DNA of 7,653 nucleotides from Amoebophrya sp. A120 (lineage: Eukaryota > Protista > Dinoflagellata), in contig CAJINV010000013.1 of assembly GCA_905178155.1 (NCBI GenBank), forward strand, positions 1,130,177-1,137,829. The letters run 5' to 3'. Each line of letters begins with the position of its first letter. The stretch's first letter is position 1. The notes below the pieces were generated by a model that worked only from the letters and a program-made list of their open reading frames with translations, did not search any database and was not told the origin of the DNA. Position numbers and translations under genes: made by a program. Below are positions 1 to 7,653 of the stretch, one piece after another.

Positions 1-480
1 GCTGCCCCGCCCCGGCGCCCGTCCTCCATCCACGCGCGCGGCAGGGGCATCAGCGAGCCCCTTCTCTGCAAGGCTGCGCGCGGGAGAAGGGCGGGGGGGG
101 CACCAAGGCGCGCAGGGGCGGGGCACACAGGGGGCAGGCGGCACGGGCGGGCCACACCGCAAACGCGCGGGCGGGGCGTCACGTGCCAGCGCCTCGCATG
201 GCGCGGACTATTAGTTCCCTTGCCTCCTTCCCCCGTCCACTGGCGCCCGCCCGCTGCCGCGCTTTGCGTTGTTGCTTGGGCCTAAGGCTTGCCGCCACGC
301 AAACGCGCGCCCAGTGCGGGCGGGGTCCTCGCGCTCGCGCAACGACGGGAACCACGGGCGCCCCATGGCGCTCCGCCTTCGTTCGTTCAGCAAGAAGCGG
401 CGCAGATGCCTGGCCCCGTCCTGCATCAAAAATTTTCTCCCTTGCCCACCCTCTGGCGTTTTTCTTTCCCCCCTGTCCAC
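1..480. other. GC-rich, apparently non-coding block with G-runs, a 12-bp direct repeat and an imperfect hairpin
   Basis: G-tracts at 82-176; CGCAAACGCGCG at 158-169 and 298-309; arms 246-269 and 297-324 are imperfectly complementary. ORFs here have no recognisable protein features. Confidence 0.45.
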
Positions 481-734
481 TCGTTCACCCTCCCACTACG
501 CGACATAAGCTGCAGCCTTGTAATAACGATTTTTGAGAAGAACCGCAAATATTACGAAAGCCGATCAAGTATGCTGCGACCGGCAGGTCGAAACGATAAC
601 TTTATAGATACATGACGTGCGAAGAATCCTGCCTCTCGACTACGCTTGCTTTCACGAATTCAGAGGTGAACGGTTGAAATCGATACAACTTCACAGTCGT
701 CCCATTACGGGGCATGACCGCAGAATGCCATTCT

Positions 735-882: not shown

Positions 883-966
883 TCAGGACTTCAAAATCGT
901 TTCAAACAATTTCTGCACGTGTGGCAAGATCGTTTCCTGGTCACTTCGCAGCTTCACCTGCGCAGC
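883..966 (-). CDS. AP1B1/AP2B1: beta-adaptin exon 8 ([27 protein letters not shown])
   Basis: Strand plus terminal amphipathic helix, as expected at the end of the appendage platform subdomain. An alternative canonical acceptor would start the exon at 957. Confidence 0.75.
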   Translation of the reverse strand, partial: AAQVKLRSDQETILPHVQKLFETILKS

Positions 967-3900
967 AGAATATGCATTCGCAAAAGTATCGCCCGCATCT
1001 TGCCGTGCAGAATGCCAAACCACGGAAGTTGGGGAGAGATCGGGAACGGGATCGCGATCATCTGTCATCATCATTGAAGCCCAAGGGTCGCATGATGAAC
1101 ATCACTACTTTCCCACAAGCATACAAGCATACGAACTTGTCCTTCAGCTGAGTGCAGCTGTGCTACACTTGAAAAGTGCGATACTTTTGCACGGGGCCAT
1201 ACTGCTCCGCGAATGACGATCTGCACGAAAAAGGCCATCCGGTTTGCAAAACAGCCGCCAAGTTGGAAGGAGTGCGTAGCGTTTTGGTCGAGCCCTACCC
1301 GGGTTTTGTCCACGTGGTGCACGAAAATTAAGTTGCGCTCCCGAAATTTTCGCAACAGCGTGGGCAAAAAGTGCTTTTCCTTCGTATCCGGATTGATGGG
1401 CACCACCACGAATTCGGACGTCGTTGCGCTAGAAGAAGCGGCCTCCGCGCCTCCAGTTCCGCTGGGTTTATTGGAGCTCTTCGGTTCCAACTTGCCCCAG
1501 TTTAAGTCGAACTGCGCCTGGGGAAGCGGCACGTCAGGGATCAGGATGGAGTGCAGCTCGAAGGGGATTTTGAAATACCACAGGTCCAGGTTCGTTTTCA
1601 GGGCCGCTTCCAAAACGATCAGGTTGTTCAACGTGAGAATGGTATTCATCGCGGCGGCGGCGGAACTATTGCTGTCCGGTGTTCCCGCTGTTTTCGCGGC
1701 GATCACGATGGGGATGACAATTGTCTTGGACTCCTTCGGCCGTAGCTGCTCGATGTCCAGGAAGGGTTTCTGCAGGCCGAGCGCGAGCTGGAAAAAGTTT
1801 TTGTTCACCTGCAGTTGGAAGTTCTGCAAGGTTTGCTTCGTGTTGTTCTGCAACGCGAGGAAGAGCAGCAGGGATTTATTGTTCTGGCTGGAACCTCCCG
1901 GCGCGGTAGAACTGCTGGAAGAAGTACTTCGGGCCAAGGAGGTTGCGATCTTGAGCCCTGTTTGGCCGCCCTTCCCCGGCTTCGTGTCCGGCAGCACCAA
2001 GGCGTATTTGACGCTTTCCGCCTGGCTCTGGCTGGTGACCGGACGGCCTTGATTTGATGTTGATGAGAGGCCTGCGGTAGTAGTTGCTGTTCCTCGCTGT
2101 GGCGGTGAGAAGGAAGACGAGGACTTGGCGTCTTCGAGCGCGGCAAGTACAGGGGTCGGCTTGTTTTTAGTACCACCTTGCTCGTCCGACGAGTCTTCGT
2201 CTCCGGACCCGTCTTCATCACTGGAACCGTCTCCCGAAGAATCTTCGTCTCTGTCCGAGGAATTTTCGCCTTCATCCTCCTCAGACGATGAGGATTCGTC
2301 GTCGCTTCCGGTTCCGCTCGCGGCCCCGCTCGCCGCCGAGCTGCTGGAATTGGTCGGTCCGCCGTTTTTAGACGCGTTCTCAAACTCGACGTGGCCCACG
2401 TTCGAAGACCCTGACAGCGGTCCGCCTTTCGCGATCGCGAGCGCCGTGGTGGACGAAGCGGGTCCTTGAGCGCTGGCGGAAGTCGTGCCCGCAGCGCCGG
2501 TCGTTCCGTCTTGCGGTGGTTTTCGGCCGGCTGCGTTCGAAGCAGATGCTGCATTCGGTCCTTTCTGCTTGTAATTTTCATCGAAACCCATTTCCGCCTG
2601 CAGTTGCCGCAGTCGCGCAACCGCGTTTTCCTCGTCTTCGCTGTCCATGTCCTCGTCATAGGCCTCCTTGTTGCGCTCAGCTATAGATCGCAAAAGATAG
2701 TGAGAATGAATAGTGGCCAAGTACAAATCGGCACAGTGTTGTTGTTCACAAGGTGTGCTCATTGAGAACACTTTACCACGATGTTATCCTACGTTTCGCG
2801 AACCTACTTCTTGCTGCTTTGAGCTAGTACAATCACACGACAAGAACTACCAGTAGGGAAAATCATTTACAACTTTTGCGAACTGCATAAGCGCGTTTTT
2901 CCCGCCTTGGTCCGCTAAATTGGACAGAAATTGCTCCGGGAGTTGCCGGTACACCGAGGAGAGGGAGCCCCACGTCTGCAGAATTTTGTCGTTCGTACTG
3001 TTCGAAGTCAAGCTGTTCTTCTCGTCGATAAGTATCCCGGGGAAAGAAGCGAGCATAGCATGCTGTTTAGGGTAAGCGCTTGCCTACTTATTAATTTTTG
3101 CATTACCAACTAAATGCTATGCTAGCTTTTTTCGGCGGGATAATGATCACTGGCTGCTTGGACAGAAGAATCTGCTTCGCGACCTTCGGGTCCGCGGAAA
3201 GCAAACGCCAGTACATGTAACTGGCGTAGTGTTCACGGTTGTATTTGAGCTTGAACAATTACGAAGTCAGTACTTACTTATGTATGATGTCTGCTGGTGC
3301 AGAACGCATAGTTGATATTGGTTCACTGACAAGCACAACAAGAGTACTATACCCTCGATCCCGCAAATCCGGATCATCGGCCTCTTCCGTGCAAAGCTTG
3401 AACTATCACATGCAAAGACGTCTGAGTTGGAGTCCAAGTCCTCGACCTCGTCCCGTTCACACACAAGTGAAAACACATATCACAGTTACATATTTCATGC
3501 GGTTTCATCTGCCGGATCGATTGTTACCAGTATTTCAAACGTAACACCCGCTCGACCAGCACAGTCAGACTTGTTGTTACGTAATTTTTTTTTCGGTGTC
3601 ATCTACGACTTCATCTCAGACATCCCATTTTCCCTCCTTATCAAGCACTTGGTGACGATTGGCTGCGTCCGGTTTCCTGGGCTTTTCAGGAACATTTTCA
3701 CGATCGCCGTGAGCAGCACCGTCTTCACCACCCCCGGTTCCTCGCGGAAATGCTGGACCTCCTGCTGCAGATTCGGCCGAGAACTACTACTGCCCCCGGT
3801 GAGAAAGTGTAGCAGAATCTCGTCCGCGTTGTCGATCCGCTCGCTGTGCTCCCCGAGTACGAAGATCAGGTTGGCTCGCGCCTCCGGCTCGTCGATGGTC

Positions 3901-5768
3901 TCCAAATGGTCGCACAAGACCTGGATGCATTTCTCGAACTTGCCCGGATACTTGCGGAAAAGCAGCGTCATGGTGATGATGGCCTCCTGCAAAACGTAGT
4001 GGACCTGCGTGTCCATCAATTCCATCAGTAAATTTACGCAGTACTCCGCGCACACCTCACTTTGCAGCGCGATTCTCCCGATGGTCTTTATCGTTTTCCG
4101 GACGAAATCAATGTCGACCTCCGAGGCGTAGTCTTTCAATTCCGACAGAACCGAGTCCAGCATGTTCGTGTCGACAGATGGACCGAGTTGTCCGGGTGGT
4201 CCCGAGGCGGTTGCGGGAGGACCACCCGCGGAAGAAAAGATGAGCAAGGGAAGCAGGTCCAGCTTCTCCATCTTTACAAACGTCGGATCGTTGTACTTGC
4301 AGTACAAAAGCTTCACGTCCAGCGAAAACCTCGCATTGGTGCTGGTCGAAGACGAAAAAACGTTCGCGTACTTTTTCAAAAATAGCTGCAGGTTCCGCAA
4401 AACCACGAACTGTATCTCGGAGTCCGAGTTCAGCAGCGTGATCAACGGCGGGCGCAGCTTCTGCAGATAAACCTGCTTCGTCTCTTGATTCGTGATGCTG
4501 TCCATCAACTTCAGGAACAGTTTCATGGTCGCCATCACCACCGCTTCGTTTGCGTGCGAGAGCCGCGGCGCCACCCGGTCCAGCAGCATCTCCGCTTGGC
4601 GACTCGTCGCGGGGTTGTAGCTGTGTGCGAGCGAGTCCAGGATGAAAACCTGGCCCCACTCCGTGCACTCATTCAACGCGTGCAGCAAGTTTTGCGTCAG
4701 CGCTTGGTCGACGATTTGCAAGTACAAGGGATTCTTCTTGCTCATCTCCGACAGCGCCGCAACGCAATTCGCGACCACCGCCGGGTTACTGCTTGTATGG
4801 GACAGAAAAAAGCAGCTACAACGTCGAACTCTGTCTTGTATTTTTACGCTAAACCTGCAACCATTATCTTGTTTCTTGGGTTTTGCAACAAAAACAGGTC
4901 GACCTGTGCGTTGTGTTTTCTCTGTGCGATACTCCGTCGTGAGATCCTTCAAAATTTCCGCGAACCCGTGCTCTTCCACCAGTTCTGCCTGGATGTCGTA
5001 CCACTATCCTATGCGAAAACGTCCCTCCCCGCAGCTAGTTCAGATGTGCCGTTGGCTACACGAATTGCAAAGTATTGCAGGTTGCGCATGAGCAGCTTAG
5101 AAATGAATACTTACAAAGATGATCGCGATCAGTTTCAGTTCGCATCCTCATATTGACTCGAGCATAAGGAGGTAGTCTGGTGTACCAGCGGCAGCGAGCG
5201 ACGCGCATTACAAACGACTACTTACTTTGTGCAGCTGCAGAAATTGCCAATCTGCAAGGTGGACAGTGCCTCACCTTTCGGATGGGAACGTTTCCACAAA
5301 AAATAGCAGCTTCGCGATACACATCACCGCGGTTTTGCGCACGTACGGGTCCTGGTCCCGACAGGACCGGCGCAGGGGCTCCAGGATGTACTCCGTCACA
5401 GCGTCCAGGCGGATGCAGCCCATGGTGCGCACCGCGAGCGCCCGGATCAACGGGTTGGGGTCCAGAGAGTCCTTGCGAAAGGTGTTGACTGCCAGGATCG
5501 CGAGCTCCGGCTGCGTGGCGGAGTAGTTCACAACGTACAGGTAGACGAGCTTTTTCAAATCCAGGCTGTTGGTTTGCATACAGTTTATAACGTCCGGAAA
5601 CAGCGAAGACACGTCCTTGCCCACCGTCATGGCCGCGATCACCTTCCGCACCGCCTCGCGTTTCTTCTCCAGCTTCTGGCTGTGCAACTCGTCGCGGAGC
5701 TCCTGCAGCTCCGACCGCTTGTTGCTCGTCGAAGAGCTGCTGAAAAAACGACCGTCGGCGGAAACCAT
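883..5768 (-). CDS. AP1B1/AP2B1: AP-1/AP-2 complex subunit beta (beta1/beta2-adaptin), 8-exon gene, ~1166 aa
   Basis: Beta1/2-adaptin motifs in order: [107 protein letters not shown], then a hinge and an appendage ([23 protein letters not shown]). Proposed exons: 5768-5307, 5000-4933, 4791-3642, 3399-3353, 3220-3144, 3028-2891, 2677-1203, 966-883, total 3501 nt (a multiple of 3), ATG at 5768, TGA at 885-883. The family call is secure; exact junctions are inferred. Confidence 0.95.
967..1202 (-). other. intron 7, GT...CT (or GT-AG ending at 958), ~236 nt, terminal inverted repeat
   Basis: Perfect 13-bp inverted repeat GCAAAAGTATCGC (1190-1178 / 980-992). Ends GTAT... and ...ATAT TCT give in-frame GCA|GCT. 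Confidence 0.75.
1203..2677 (-). CDS. AP1B1/AP2B1: beta-adaptin exon 7 (acidic/Ser-Gly hinge plus appendage)
   Basis: Bulk of ORF 1071..2771: low-complexity hinge, then appendage-like sequence ([30 protein letters not shown]). Confidence 0.82.
2678..2890 (-). other. intron 6, non-canonical (TT...TG), ~213 nt, terminal inverted repeat
   Basis: An intron is required because of the in-frame TAG at 2849-2847. Perfect 9-bp inverted repeat TCGCAAAAG (2881-2873 / 2688-2696). Ends TTAT... and ...ATAG CTG give in-frame C|AG. The protein is not conserved here, so exact ends rest on the motif. Confidence 0.68.
2891..3028 (-). CDS. AP1B1/AP2B1: beta-adaptin exon 6 (DEKNSL...[15 protein letters not shown]...GKNA)
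   Basis: [14 protein letters not shown] corresponds to the end-of-trunk motif GSLASVYHKPPxxF. The 3' boundary is inferred from the intron rule. Confidence 0.8.
3029..3143 (-). mobile_element. intron 5, non-canonical (TT...TA), 115 nt, MITE/introner-like with 31-bp imperfect inverted repeat
   Basis: 3144-3114 vs 3031-3061 match at 26/31. Ends are TTAT... and ...ATAC TTA; A|TC gives QPVI-I-DEK. A 118-nt alternative using the flanking ATC repeat is also in frame. Confidence 0.78.
3144..3220 (-). CDS. AP1B1/AP2B1: beta-adaptin exon 5 ([25 protein letters not shown])
   Basis: Conserved YxYWRLLS..DP motif; absent from the ORF track. Confidence 0.88.
3221..3352 (-). other. intron 4, GT-AG, 132 nt, degenerate terminal inverted repeat
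   Basis: GG|T restores RDRG-YMYW. Ends are GTATAGT... and ...ACTACGC CAG, in the same +1/-4 register but with weak pairing. Confidence 0.9.
3353..3399 (-). CDS. AP1B1/AP2B1: beta-adaptin exon 4 ([16 protein letters not shown])
   Basis: 47-nt exon absent from the ORF track; encodes the conserved DxPDLRDRG motif. Confidence 0.9.
3400..3641 (-). other. intron 3, non-canonical (AT...TC), 242 nt, sub-terminal inverted repeat
   Basis: TTG|AAG gives VTKCL|KLCTEE, co-linear with homologues. Ends are ATAA... and ...ATAG TTC. 3626-3607 pairs with 3415-3434 (15 WC + 3 G:U of 20). Confidence 0.82.
3642..4791 (-). CDS. AP1B1/AP2B1: beta-adaptin exon 3 (trunk, SNPAVVAN...TQPIVTKCL)
   Basis: Main body of ORF 3603..4979, with continuous HEAT/ARM trunk similarity. 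Confidence 0.92.
4792..4932 (-). other. intron 2, GT-AG, 141 nt, stop-free and in frame, with terminal inverted repeat
   Basis: GA|C restores the conserved D of DSNP. Ends are GTAT... and ...ATAC AAG. 4932-4916 pairs with 4795-4811 (14 WC + 1 G:U of 17). Confidence 0.9.
4933..5000 (-). CDS. AP1B1/AP2B1: beta-adaptin exon 2 ([23 protein letters not shown])
   Basis: Matches the conserved LYDIxxxLVExxGFxxxLKDL segment. Confidence 0.9.
5001..5306 (-). other. intron 1, non-canonical (CT...GG), 306 nt, introner-like with terminal stem
   Basis: Removal joins AAG CTG|TAC GAC (KL|YD), the conserved reading. Ends are CTAT... and ...ATAG TGG. 5309-5285 pairs with 5001-5025 at 24/25 positions (7 G:U). 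Can slide 1 nt (GC...TG) giving the same mRNA. Confidence 0.88.
5307..5768 (-). CDS. AP1B1/AP2B1: beta-adaptin exon 1 (MVSADGRFF...VMCIAKL)
   Basis: Part of ORF 5271..5840. Similarity to beta-adaptin N-termini starts at the ATG at 5768 and ends after CIAKL. Confidence 0.92.
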
Positions 5769-5788: not shown

Positions 5789-5812
5789 CTAAGTAAGTAA
5801 GTACAATAAAAG
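5789..5812 (-). promoter_or_regulatory. candidate 3' splice / trans-splice acceptor upstream of the beta-adaptin ATG
   Basis: Minus strand reads TTTTATTGTACTTACTTACTTAG: a T-rich tract ending in AG (5790-5789), 20 nt before the ATG. Function is inferred only. Confidence 0.3.
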
Positions 5813-6417: not shown

Positions 6418-7653
6418 TCATCTGCCTTTGCTCTTTTCTTGTTCATCTATCACATACTTTTCAAATCCGCTTTCAGCCTCGAAGCAGATTCCGAAGGACG
6501 GCAACTCGAGACGCGCCGCGTGCAAGAACATGCGCCACACGTGGCCGTCCCGAGGAGAGTGCAGGAGCTGCTGCTTGTTCGCTTGTTCTACTCCATTTTG
6601 CGTAGTCGAGAGCGGCCCCGGTCCTTCCGGTCCAGCCATCGTGCAGGAAGAGCTTCGCGAGCAGCTGCTGCTTCTCCCACCATTCCGATTTCCGCTTACC
6701 GCACTGTACGCTGCGTCACCCAGGATCGGATGGCCCAAGAAAGCCAAATGAACCCGGATCTGGTGTCGGCGGCCGGTGAAAAGGCGCACCCGAAGCAGCG
6801 TCACCTTCTTGGAACAATCCGAACCCGAAACAGTTCCCTCTGCTGCCACTAAAGGCCTACGGTAGTACCCCCTTCTCACGACCGAAAAGTGTGTGTGCGC
6901 GGACTCGGCCTTTGCTTGCGATTTTCTTGTTCCACCTGCAACTGTTTCAACATCAACCGGAGATGAATTCGAATTCAAACTTTTGTGCTGGCGCATCGCA
7001 TGCTCAGCCAGGCCATTGCTCTTCCCGTCCTCGTGCGGGGACATCGAGAACCGTGCCAAATCGAGCAGAGCGCCGGTGCCAGTTTTGACAAAATCGCCGT
7101 CTTGCACGAAGACCTCTCTTGTCGCGAACAGGGTCGATGATTTAGCTGGGGCGGCACCTACCGCTGGCCTTTCTTTTTCTTCGACAAGACCTCGTTCATC
7201 TTCTGTGGCCTTTTTTCCGTCATTTTCCTTATGACAAAGATCCACCGGCGAAGCAACTACACCCGGACTCTTTTCTCCAGATTGTATAGCGTCGGAGGCA
7301 CTAGAAATTTTTGCAGTCGCCAACCCGTCGGCCCCGGTGGTTCTTGTCAATTGTAATGATACGTCAGGAGGCGATATTGGAGCTTTATCCCGGATGGATA
7401 GGTGCACGTCGTACTCAGTTTCCTCCATCCACCCCTCCACGAGGACATCGTAAAACTTCCGCGCCTTTCGCTGCGTGAACTCGTCCCCGACCGCGGCTGC
7501 GGTTTGTTTTGTCAGGCCGACGAGCAGGATCCCGGAGGTTGCGTGGTCCAGTTGATTGATCCAACGAATCTTATTTGTCGGTTCTTGATGCCGCTCTTTC
7601 ACCCAGTCCGCCACAGTCTCCTCCCCGTCGTAATTCCTTTCGGGTCGAAAATC
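6418..7653 (-). CDS. RluA/RPUSD-family RNA pseudouridine synthase (5'-truncated by the window edge)
   Basis: Catalytic motif NQLDHATSGILLV (Asp codon 7548-7546), KFYDVLVEG, TGRRHQIRVHLAFLGHPILGDAAY, RMFLHAARLELP. The frame is open to 7653, so GTG at 7614 is not the start. TGA at 6420-6418. Confidence 0.93.
   Translation of the reverse strand, partial: DFRPERNYDGEETVADWVKERHQEPTNKIRWINQLDHATSGILLVGLTKQTAAAVGDEFTQRKARKFYDVLVEGWMEETEYDVHLSIRDKAPISPPDVSLQLTRTTGADGLATAKISSASDAIQSGEKSPGVVASPVDLCHKENDGKKATEDERGLVEEKERPAVGAAPAKSSTLFATREVFVQDGDFVKTGTGALLDLARFSMSPHEDGKSNGLAEHAMRQHKSLNSNSSPVDVETVAGGTRKSQAKAESAHTHFSVVRRGYYRRPLVAAEGTVSGSDCSKKVTLLRVRLFTGRRHQIRVHLAFLGHPILGDAAYSAVSGNRNGGRSSSCSRSSSCTMAGPEGPGPLSTTQNGVEQANKQQLLHSPRDGHVWRMFLHAARLELPSFGICFEAESGFEKYVIDEQEKSKGR

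What the first reader, a model, noticed from the sequence alone, without database searches (positions are those of the whole stretch)
5001..5309. Intron 1 ends form a 25-bp helix whose deviations are almost all G:U on the sense strand
Seen: CTGCTATTTTTTGTGGAAACGTTCC (5309-5285) against 5001-5025 gives 17 Watson-Crick pairs, 7 G:U, 1 U:U and no A:C. A neutrally decaying DNA inverted repeat should gain G:T and A:C oppositions about equally, so 7:0 suggests selection on pre-mRNA structure. The last three exon bases (CTG) can also pair with the TGG overhang. Caveat: I3, I4 and I5 do contain A:C oppositions, so this is not uniform.
Basis: partly seen in the sequence, partly recalled or inferred. 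Interest (0 to 1): 0.72.

Follow-up and report, generated by a model that had tools for sequence, protein, structure and literature searches.

The report
Hairpin-ended transposon intron in Amoebophrya
This 306-base stretch is cut out of a gene of the marine parasite Amoebophrya without normal splice signals; its ends are likely the worn inverted repeats of a small transposon and are predicted to pair as RNA, a known kind of intron in this organism, and the wobble-pair excess seen here is not repeated in the gene's six other introns.

Summary
The pair count is right (17 Watson-Crick, 7 G:U, 1 U:U, 0 A:C) and the intron is real. 5001-5306 is skipped in transcript-like contigs of one sample. The seven-intron model translates letter for letter into a public Amoebophrya sp. 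A120 beta-adaptin. Such hairpin-ended non-canonical introns are published for A120, and this scan has noted similar ones in other protists.

The selection argument is weaker than claimed. The six other introns give 3:2 to 10:7 (p 0.45-1.0), and only 2 of 6 pair better on the sense strand.

Two things were added here. First, the 3' arm occurs exactly on two other DNA contigs, so it is a family repeat and all six deviations likely sit in the 5' arm. Second, all seven introns, including both GT-AG ones, fit one cut register, N-TAT...ATA-NNNN (39 of 42 positions), whereas the paper calls the sites variable. That register is the better lead. Verdict: known kind; G:U selection plausible but unproven.

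The parts
883..5768 (-). Host gene: AP-complex beta subunit (beta-adaptin), 8 coding exons, 1166 aa
   Evidence: Spliced model identical to P0001, named Amoebophrya sp. A120 by its source; Pfam Adaptin_N
5001..5306 (-). Intron 1, 306 nt, non-canonical (CT..GG, or GC..TG if slid one base)
   Evidence: Joint 5000/5307 in contigs of X3 and X4, present as continuous DNA in X1; no indel against 7 homologues at AKL|YDI
5285..5305 (-). 5' arm of the 21-nt terminal inverted repeat, starts TAT; differs from the complement of the 3' arm by 4 C>T, 1 A>G, 1 A>T
   Evidence: no other contig laid on it
5005..5025 (-). 3' arm of the terminal inverted repeat, ends ATA; family motif
   Evidence: Exact 21-nt match on 2 other contigs of DNA run X1, both ending at 5005 and 5025, with unlike flanks
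5306..5306 (-). First intron base, pairs C-G with 5004; outside the shared repeat
5001..5004 (-). Last 4 intron bases after ATA (one paired base plus 3-nt overhang); likely decayed target-site duplication
   Evidence: 2 of 5 matches to the left flank here, 14 of 35 over seven introns; origin inferred
5307..5309 (-). Last exon-1 codon (Leu), can pair with the 3-nt overhang (1 WC, 2 G:U)
   Evidence: complete pairing in 1 of 7 introns only
5026..5031 (-). Inner extension of the stem: C.A and A.G oppositions, then 4 pairs with 5282-5279
4792..4932 (-). Intron 2, GT-AG, also G-TAT...ATA-NNNN with a terminal stem
3400..3641 (-). Intron 3, non-canonical (tool cut 3399-3640, slides 1), decayed stem, TAA...ATA
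3221..3352 (-). Intron 4, GT-AG, TAT...ACG; holds most of the A:C oppositions
3029..3143 (-). Intron 5, non-canonical (tool cut 3028-3142, slides 2), best-kept inverted repeat, 0 G:U and 1 A:C
2678..2890 (-). Intron 6, non-canonical, no slide possible, T-TAT...ATA-NNNN
967..1202 (-). Intron 7, non-canonical (tool cut 966-1201, slides 1)

Best explanation
This is a non-canonical intron of Amoebophrya A120, likely the worn remnant of a small inverted-repeat DNA transposon, that is cut out of the beta-adaptin RNA one base before TAT and four bases after ATA, likely guided by the helix its ends are predicted to form. Shown: precise removal, the 21-nt repeat, other genomic copies of the 3' arm, and one register fitting all seven introns of the gene. 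Inferred: the element inserted with about a 5-nt target duplication, and the splicing machinery (which lacks a detected U1 snRNA in A120) measures the cuts from the TAT/ATA base of the helix. Also inferred: as the copy aged, 5'-arm changes that keep RNA pairing (C>T, A>G) were tolerated more than those that break it.
For: Skip of 306 nt in X3 and X4 but not in DNA run X1; model equals P0001; no amino acid gained or lost. Sense-strand helix predicted with high probability. Two other contigs carry the 3' arm exactly, and both matches stop where the Watson-Crick helix stops (chance about 5e-5 per given 21-mer). Register N-TAT...ATA-N4 matches 39 of 42 positions; the chance that one 1+4 split fits all seven slide ranges is about 0.0008 under a uniform split. 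Published support: A120 repeat families start with TAT; 9 of 9 predominant A120 non-canonical motifs in Table S4 have T as second base; U1 snRNA not detected. In the 7 families with 96 or more copies among the 20 of 58 A120 rows seen, GT starts are 26-30%, as expected if base 1 is free and base 2 is T. Euglena introns need fixed spacers to a paired motif.
Against: The G:U excess does not replicate: six other introns 3:2 to 10:7, all seven pooled p 0.065-0.42 over 8 settings and p 0.25-0.36 over 4 settings. Sense beats antisense duplex energy in 3 of 7 introns, 2 of 6 without intron 1. In full context the terminal helix is not predicted on the sense strand for intron 6 (non-canonical, 0.0 pairs) or intron 4, and the TAT:ATA pair itself has probability 0.01-0.42 in introns 2, 3 and 7. 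No clean 3-5 nt direct repeat at intron 1. Splicing evidence comes from one sample whose RNA status is a guess, and the public gene model may rest on similar data. Farhat et al. describe the splice sites as variable relative to the hairpin. No orthologous intron was found, so there is no covariation test.
Confidence: 0.55

Rival explanations
1. The inverted repeat is only a transposon fossil. The cuts are set by the short TAT and ATA motifs (or bound proteins) at fixed distance, and 5:0 is a small-number result picked out as the best of seven introns.
Against: Intron 1 keeps 20 of 21 repeat positions pairable despite 6 differences; the sense/antisense gap of 12.9 kcal/mol is three times any other intron's; G:U is at least as many as A:C in 15 of the 16 'six others' and 'all seven' tallies.
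Confidence: 0.28
2. The G:U oppositions come from biased mutation, not selection: C>T and A>G changes on the non-template strand, or one local event that turned bases 3-8 of the 5' arm into a T run.
For: The five G:U-making changes are 4 C>T and 1 A>G on the sense strand; 3 of 6 changes lie in one T run; with 4 independent events p is 0.06-0.15.
Against: No G+T excess in intron interiors (T 260 vs A 271, G 224 vs C 210); a mutational bias should also hit the 3' arm, which has 0 of 6 changes (two-sided p 0.03; biased by how the copies were found).
Confidence: 0.1
3. The parent element already had unequal arms, and G:T wobbles were kept because it moves through a single-stranded DNA or RNA hairpin, so the bias concerns transposition rather than splicing.
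For: Depth accounting shows each of the two other contigs laid only one exact arm, so their partner arms may also differ; the 6:0 arm split is odd for plain decay.
Against: Neither contig was laid on this intron's 5' arm or interior at 80% likeness; with DNA parameters the sense advantage is only 2.2 kcal/mol.
Confidence: 0.07

Closest known systems
Non-canonical introns and introner elements of Amoebophrya A120 (Farhat et al. 2021, PMC7789003)
   Same: Same organism by protein identity; non GT-AG ends; terminal inverted repeat starting TAT with an A run; predicted hairpin joining the exon ends; length near the 240-nt mean; the public protein already has this intron removed.
   Different: Longest perfect run is 6 bp (below their 8-20 nt) and there is no 3-5 nt direct repeat, so it looks like a decayed copy. 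The paper calls splice sites variable relative to the hairpin, whereas one register fits 7 of 7 here. No G:U versus A:C analysis in the text I could search.
TIR DNA-transposon introners of A120 (Gozashti et al. 2025, PMC12130899, Dataset S2)
   Same: Families classed as TIR DNA elements with mostly non-canonical ends, 2-5 nt duplications, and splice sites often co-opted from the flanks.
   Different: No family consensus holding this arm was found in the 12 of 14 supplement files searched, so no family could be assigned.
Euglenid nonconventional introns (Nomura et al. 2025, PMC12501133)
   Same: Works alike: paired triplets near both ends at fixed spacer lengths from the cuts, with a longer 3' spacer; probable MITE origin.
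   Different: Motif CAG/CTG with spacers 3 and 5-6, against TAT/ATA with spacers 1 and 4 here; unrelated lineage; tested by mutagenesis in Euglena, untested here.

Membership tests
Amoebophrya A120 non-canonical intron (Farhat 2021) | Removed from the transcript | tested here: met
   Joint listed in 2 of 3 transcript-like contig runs (X3, X4); X5 shows a 13-letter loose end fitting it; all one sample; absent from DNA run X1
Amoebophrya A120 non-canonical intron (Farhat 2021) | Ends other than GT-AG | tested here: met
   Both equivalent cuts (CT..GG, GC..TG) are non-canonical
Amoebophrya A120 non-canonical intron (Farhat 2021) | Lies in the A120 genome | tested here: met
   Spliced product identical to P0001, named Amoebophrya sp. 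A120
A120 introner element, strict definition | 8-20 nt inverted repeat at the ends | tested here: inconclusive
A120 introner element, strict definition | Repeat starts TAT, about 7 free bases, then an A run | tested here: met
   TAT, 9 bases, AAA in the 5' arm; spacing is 9, not 7
A120 introner element, strict definition | 3-5 nt direct repeat across the borders | tested here: not met
   1-nt slide only; 2 of 5 matches. Hence filed as introner-derived, not as a strict member
A120 introner element, strict definition | Repeated elsewhere in the genome | tested here: inconclusive
   3' arm on 2 other contigs; no other contig laid on the body at 80% likeness; genome not held
A120 introner element, strict definition | Match to the authors' family HMMs | not testable with these tools
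   Profiles and consensus sequences not in the supplements searched
U2 or U12 spliceosomal intron by consensus | GT/GC-AG or AT-AC ends | tested here: not met
   whether the spliceosome nevertheless removes it was not testable
Euglenid nonconventional intron | N3-CDG ... CH'G-N5-6 | purine signature | tested here: not met
   Bases +4 to +6 are TTT and the next exon starts with T
Curated structured RNA or self-splicing intron (Rfam) | Match to an Rfam model | tested here: not met
   0 matches at E up to 1 in the window

The most novel reading that the evidence does not exclude
A120 introns are not variable at their ends but follow one positional code, 5'-N TAT ... ATA N4-3', read from the base of a G:U-tolerant terminal RNA helix. 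Many GT-AG introns are just instances of it, worn copies that DNA-complement searches miss obey it too, and it stands in for U1-based donor recognition: a second, independent origin of the Euglena-type helix-measured splicing.
Probability: 0.33. Interest if true: 0.72.

Novelty: already known. Interest (0 to 1): 0.33.

Why it matters
How A120 removes the roughly two thirds of its introns that lack GT-AG, with no U1 snRNA detected, is an open question. The published inverted repeats could be mere transposon leftovers or working splice guides. A fixed N-TAT...ATA-N4 register, if general, would turn 'no clear splice signature' into a rule that can be used for gene annotation and tested by mutation.

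Tried and rejected
Whole genome: none held, so no genome-wide count. Three raw-read RNA runs laid 0, 1 and 0 reads on the window: no test. No listed holder is on record as RNA. Exact search of metagenome contigs with the 5' arm: 0 hits. Related-locus scan: 53 loci from 203 candidate stretches, best segment 79% and 52% or lower over the longer match; none looked like a close Amoebophrya relative, so no compensatory-change test. Arm motifs not found in 12 of 14 supplement files of PMC12130899. Rfam: nothing. The generic repeat finder did not list this stem among its 25 longest of 304 inverted pairs. Rejected: a canonical GC-AG reading (the in-frame equivalent cuts are CT..GG and GC..TG only). 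Rejected: internal mini-exons using the GTAAGT motifs (the skip is one piece of 306 nt). Rejected: exon-to-overhang pairing as a general rule (1 of 7). Not supported: a strand-wide G+T mutation skew. The joint 4670/5327 in X4 and X5 comes from a contig with 18 other letters in 109 and was set aside as another organism's or a paralogue's transcript. Earlier scan notes for this genome and sequence: none.

Full report
Setting. The minus strand carries a beta-adaptin gene (Pfam Adaptin_N). A protein search returned a 100% match, P0001, 1166 aa, which its source names Amoebophrya sp. A120. Contigs of run X3 (RNA by guess) skip seven stretches: 966-1201, 2678-2890, 3028-3142, 3221-3352, 3399-3640, 4792-4932 and 5001-5306. 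X4 repeats the six that lie in 2600-5500, and X5 lists five of them plus a 13-letter loose end that fits the intron 1 joint. X3-X5 are one sample. One contig of DNA run X1 spans 2600-5500 without a gap and may be the window's source. Removing the seven stretches gives P0001 letter for letter. Seven homologues align without an indel at the intron 1 position. So 5001-5306 is a real intron and is already removed in the public gene model. It can slide by one base, and neither cut is GT-AG or GC-AG.

The observation. The helix is predicted on the sense strand and largely lost on the antisense strand: duplex -26.4 vs -13.5 kcal/mol, expected pairs 24.1 vs 11.7. The whole-region z-scores are modest, -1.64 and -0.55.

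Anatomy. Two other contigs of X1 match 5005-5025 exactly, with unlike flanks, and both matches begin at TAT and stop at 5025, where the Watson-Crick helix also stops. A given 21-mer is expected about 5e-5 times by chance in that run. This marks the element's inverted repeat as 5005-5025 with 5285-5305. Against the shared arm, the 5' arm differs by 4 C>T, 1 A>G and 1 A>T. That all six changes are in the 5' arm is an inference from the exact copies of the 3' arm. It is biased by the fact that only exact copies, each helped by a second short match, were laid. Depth accounting shows each of those contigs laid one arm only, so their partner arms are unknown.

The G:U argument. Inside the repeat the count is 5:0 (one-sided 0.031, two-sided 0.0625). 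The next opposition inward is C.A, and a symmetric extension gives 6:1 (p 0.125). Conditioned on the 5' arm, 13 of 21 transitions make G:U, so p is 0.09-0.12. Counting the T run as one event gives 0.06-0.15. I aligned all seven introns with scoring blind to G:U versus A:C. Four settings gave pooled 11:6, 25:17, 29:20 and 18:12 (p 0.25-0.36). Eight end-restricted settings gave p 0.065-0.42 for all seven and 0.45-1.0 for the six others (3:2 to 10:7); the four other non-canonical introns alone gave 0:1 to 6:2, none significant. Most A:C lie in intron 4, a GT-AG intron, which fits relaxed need for a stem but is a post hoc remark. Sense beats antisense energy in 3 of 7 introns, and the terminal helix is not predicted on the sense strand for introns 4 and 6.

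The register. Within the slides the data allow, all seven introns can be written N-TAT ... ATA-NNNN: five exactly, intron 3 as TAA...ATA and intron 4 as TAT...ACG, 39 of 42 positions. Introns 2 and 6 cannot slide and show 1+4 directly. The total of five flanking bases would follow from a 5-nt target duplication removed exactly (inference; remnant matches 14 of 35, p 0.04). The shared split is the informative part: about 0.0008 under a uniform split over six options, a null of my own choosing. Published tables agree at the 5' end. 9 of 9 predominant A120 non-canonical motifs have T second (Table S4), and large A120 families start GT in 26-30% of copies (7 families of 96 or more copies among 20 of 58 rows seen). 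This is one gene, so generality is untested.

Mechanism. Most likely a small inverted-repeat DNA transposon inserted here. The transcript folds the arms together, and the splicing machinery cuts one base before TAT and four after ATA, restoring the frame. Removal, repeat, copies and register are shown. Transposon origin follows from the published family. Helix guidance and selection on pairing are inferred, by analogy with Euglena, where a paired motif and fixed spacers are required. Rivals are motif-only recognition with a fossil repeat, biased mutation, and inherited unequal arms.

What is known. Farhat et al. (PMC7789003; seen: abstract, passages, sections 10, 11, 12, 16, supplement passages and part 3 of 5; figures not visible) report that over 60% of A120 introns are non-canonical. 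About 30% of these have 8-20 nt inverted repeats and 3-5 nt direct repeats, families start TAT, hairpins are predicted, U1 snRNA was not detected, and splice sites are 'variable' relative to the hairpin. Gozashti et al. (PMC12130899; passages, 12 of 14 supplement files searched, 20 of 58 A120 rows) class the families mostly as TIR DNA elements. Also seen: PMC12501133 (abstract, passages, sections 7 and 8) and PMC11282704, PMC12005148, PMC11453091 (passages only). Roy et al. 2023 (PubMed 36543167) is not held. I found no G:U versus A:C analysis or stated fixed register for these introns in searches, or by term search of the Farhat text and supplement. Their Figs 3, 4 and S19-S25 and the Roy paper, which I could not see, may show either. 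This intron meets the definition of an A120 non-canonical intron. It fails the direct-repeat feature of a strict introner element, so I file it as introner-derived rather than as a strict member.

Verdict. Observation confirmed, interpretation partly supported, kind already known, interest 0.33.

Noticed in passing
window 5220-5225, 5109-5114, 3272-3277 (minus): Perfect GTAAGT donor motifs lie inside introns 1 and 4 and are not used in the transcript-like contigs; 3 seen vs 0.43 expected (p about 0.01, post hoc). Of interest given the missing U1 snRNA. Four more lie on the plus strand at 5793, 5797, 5888 and 6219.
   Followed up: partly
window 4792-4932 and 3221-3352 (minus): Both GT-AG introns also begin G-TAT and have terminal inverted-repeat remnants, so they may be introner-derived too.
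   Followed up: partly
window 3054-3071: An X1 contig shares 18 nt next to intron 5's arm and, 100 nt further on, carries intron 1's 21-nt arm: two related elements side by side elsewhere in the genome.
   Followed up: no
window 2872-2889 and 971-987: Introns 6 and 7 share 17 of 18 bases of arm sequence (E about 0.05-0.06), perhaps related families.
   Followed up: no
window 388-524: Several X3 contigs pile up here with differing letters and diverge at 522-524 into unrelated sequences: a repeated element; 1-400 is 70-79% GC.
   Followed up: no
window 6418-7653 (minus): Upstream gene on the same strand with an RNA pseudouridylate synthase domain (PF00849); one X3 contig covers 6269-7507 without a skip.
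   Followed up: no
window 883-5768 (minus): The beta-adaptin carries Ser/Gly/Pro-rich insertions and a long acidic Ser-rich linker that the seven aligned homologues lack or have much shorter.
   Followed up: no
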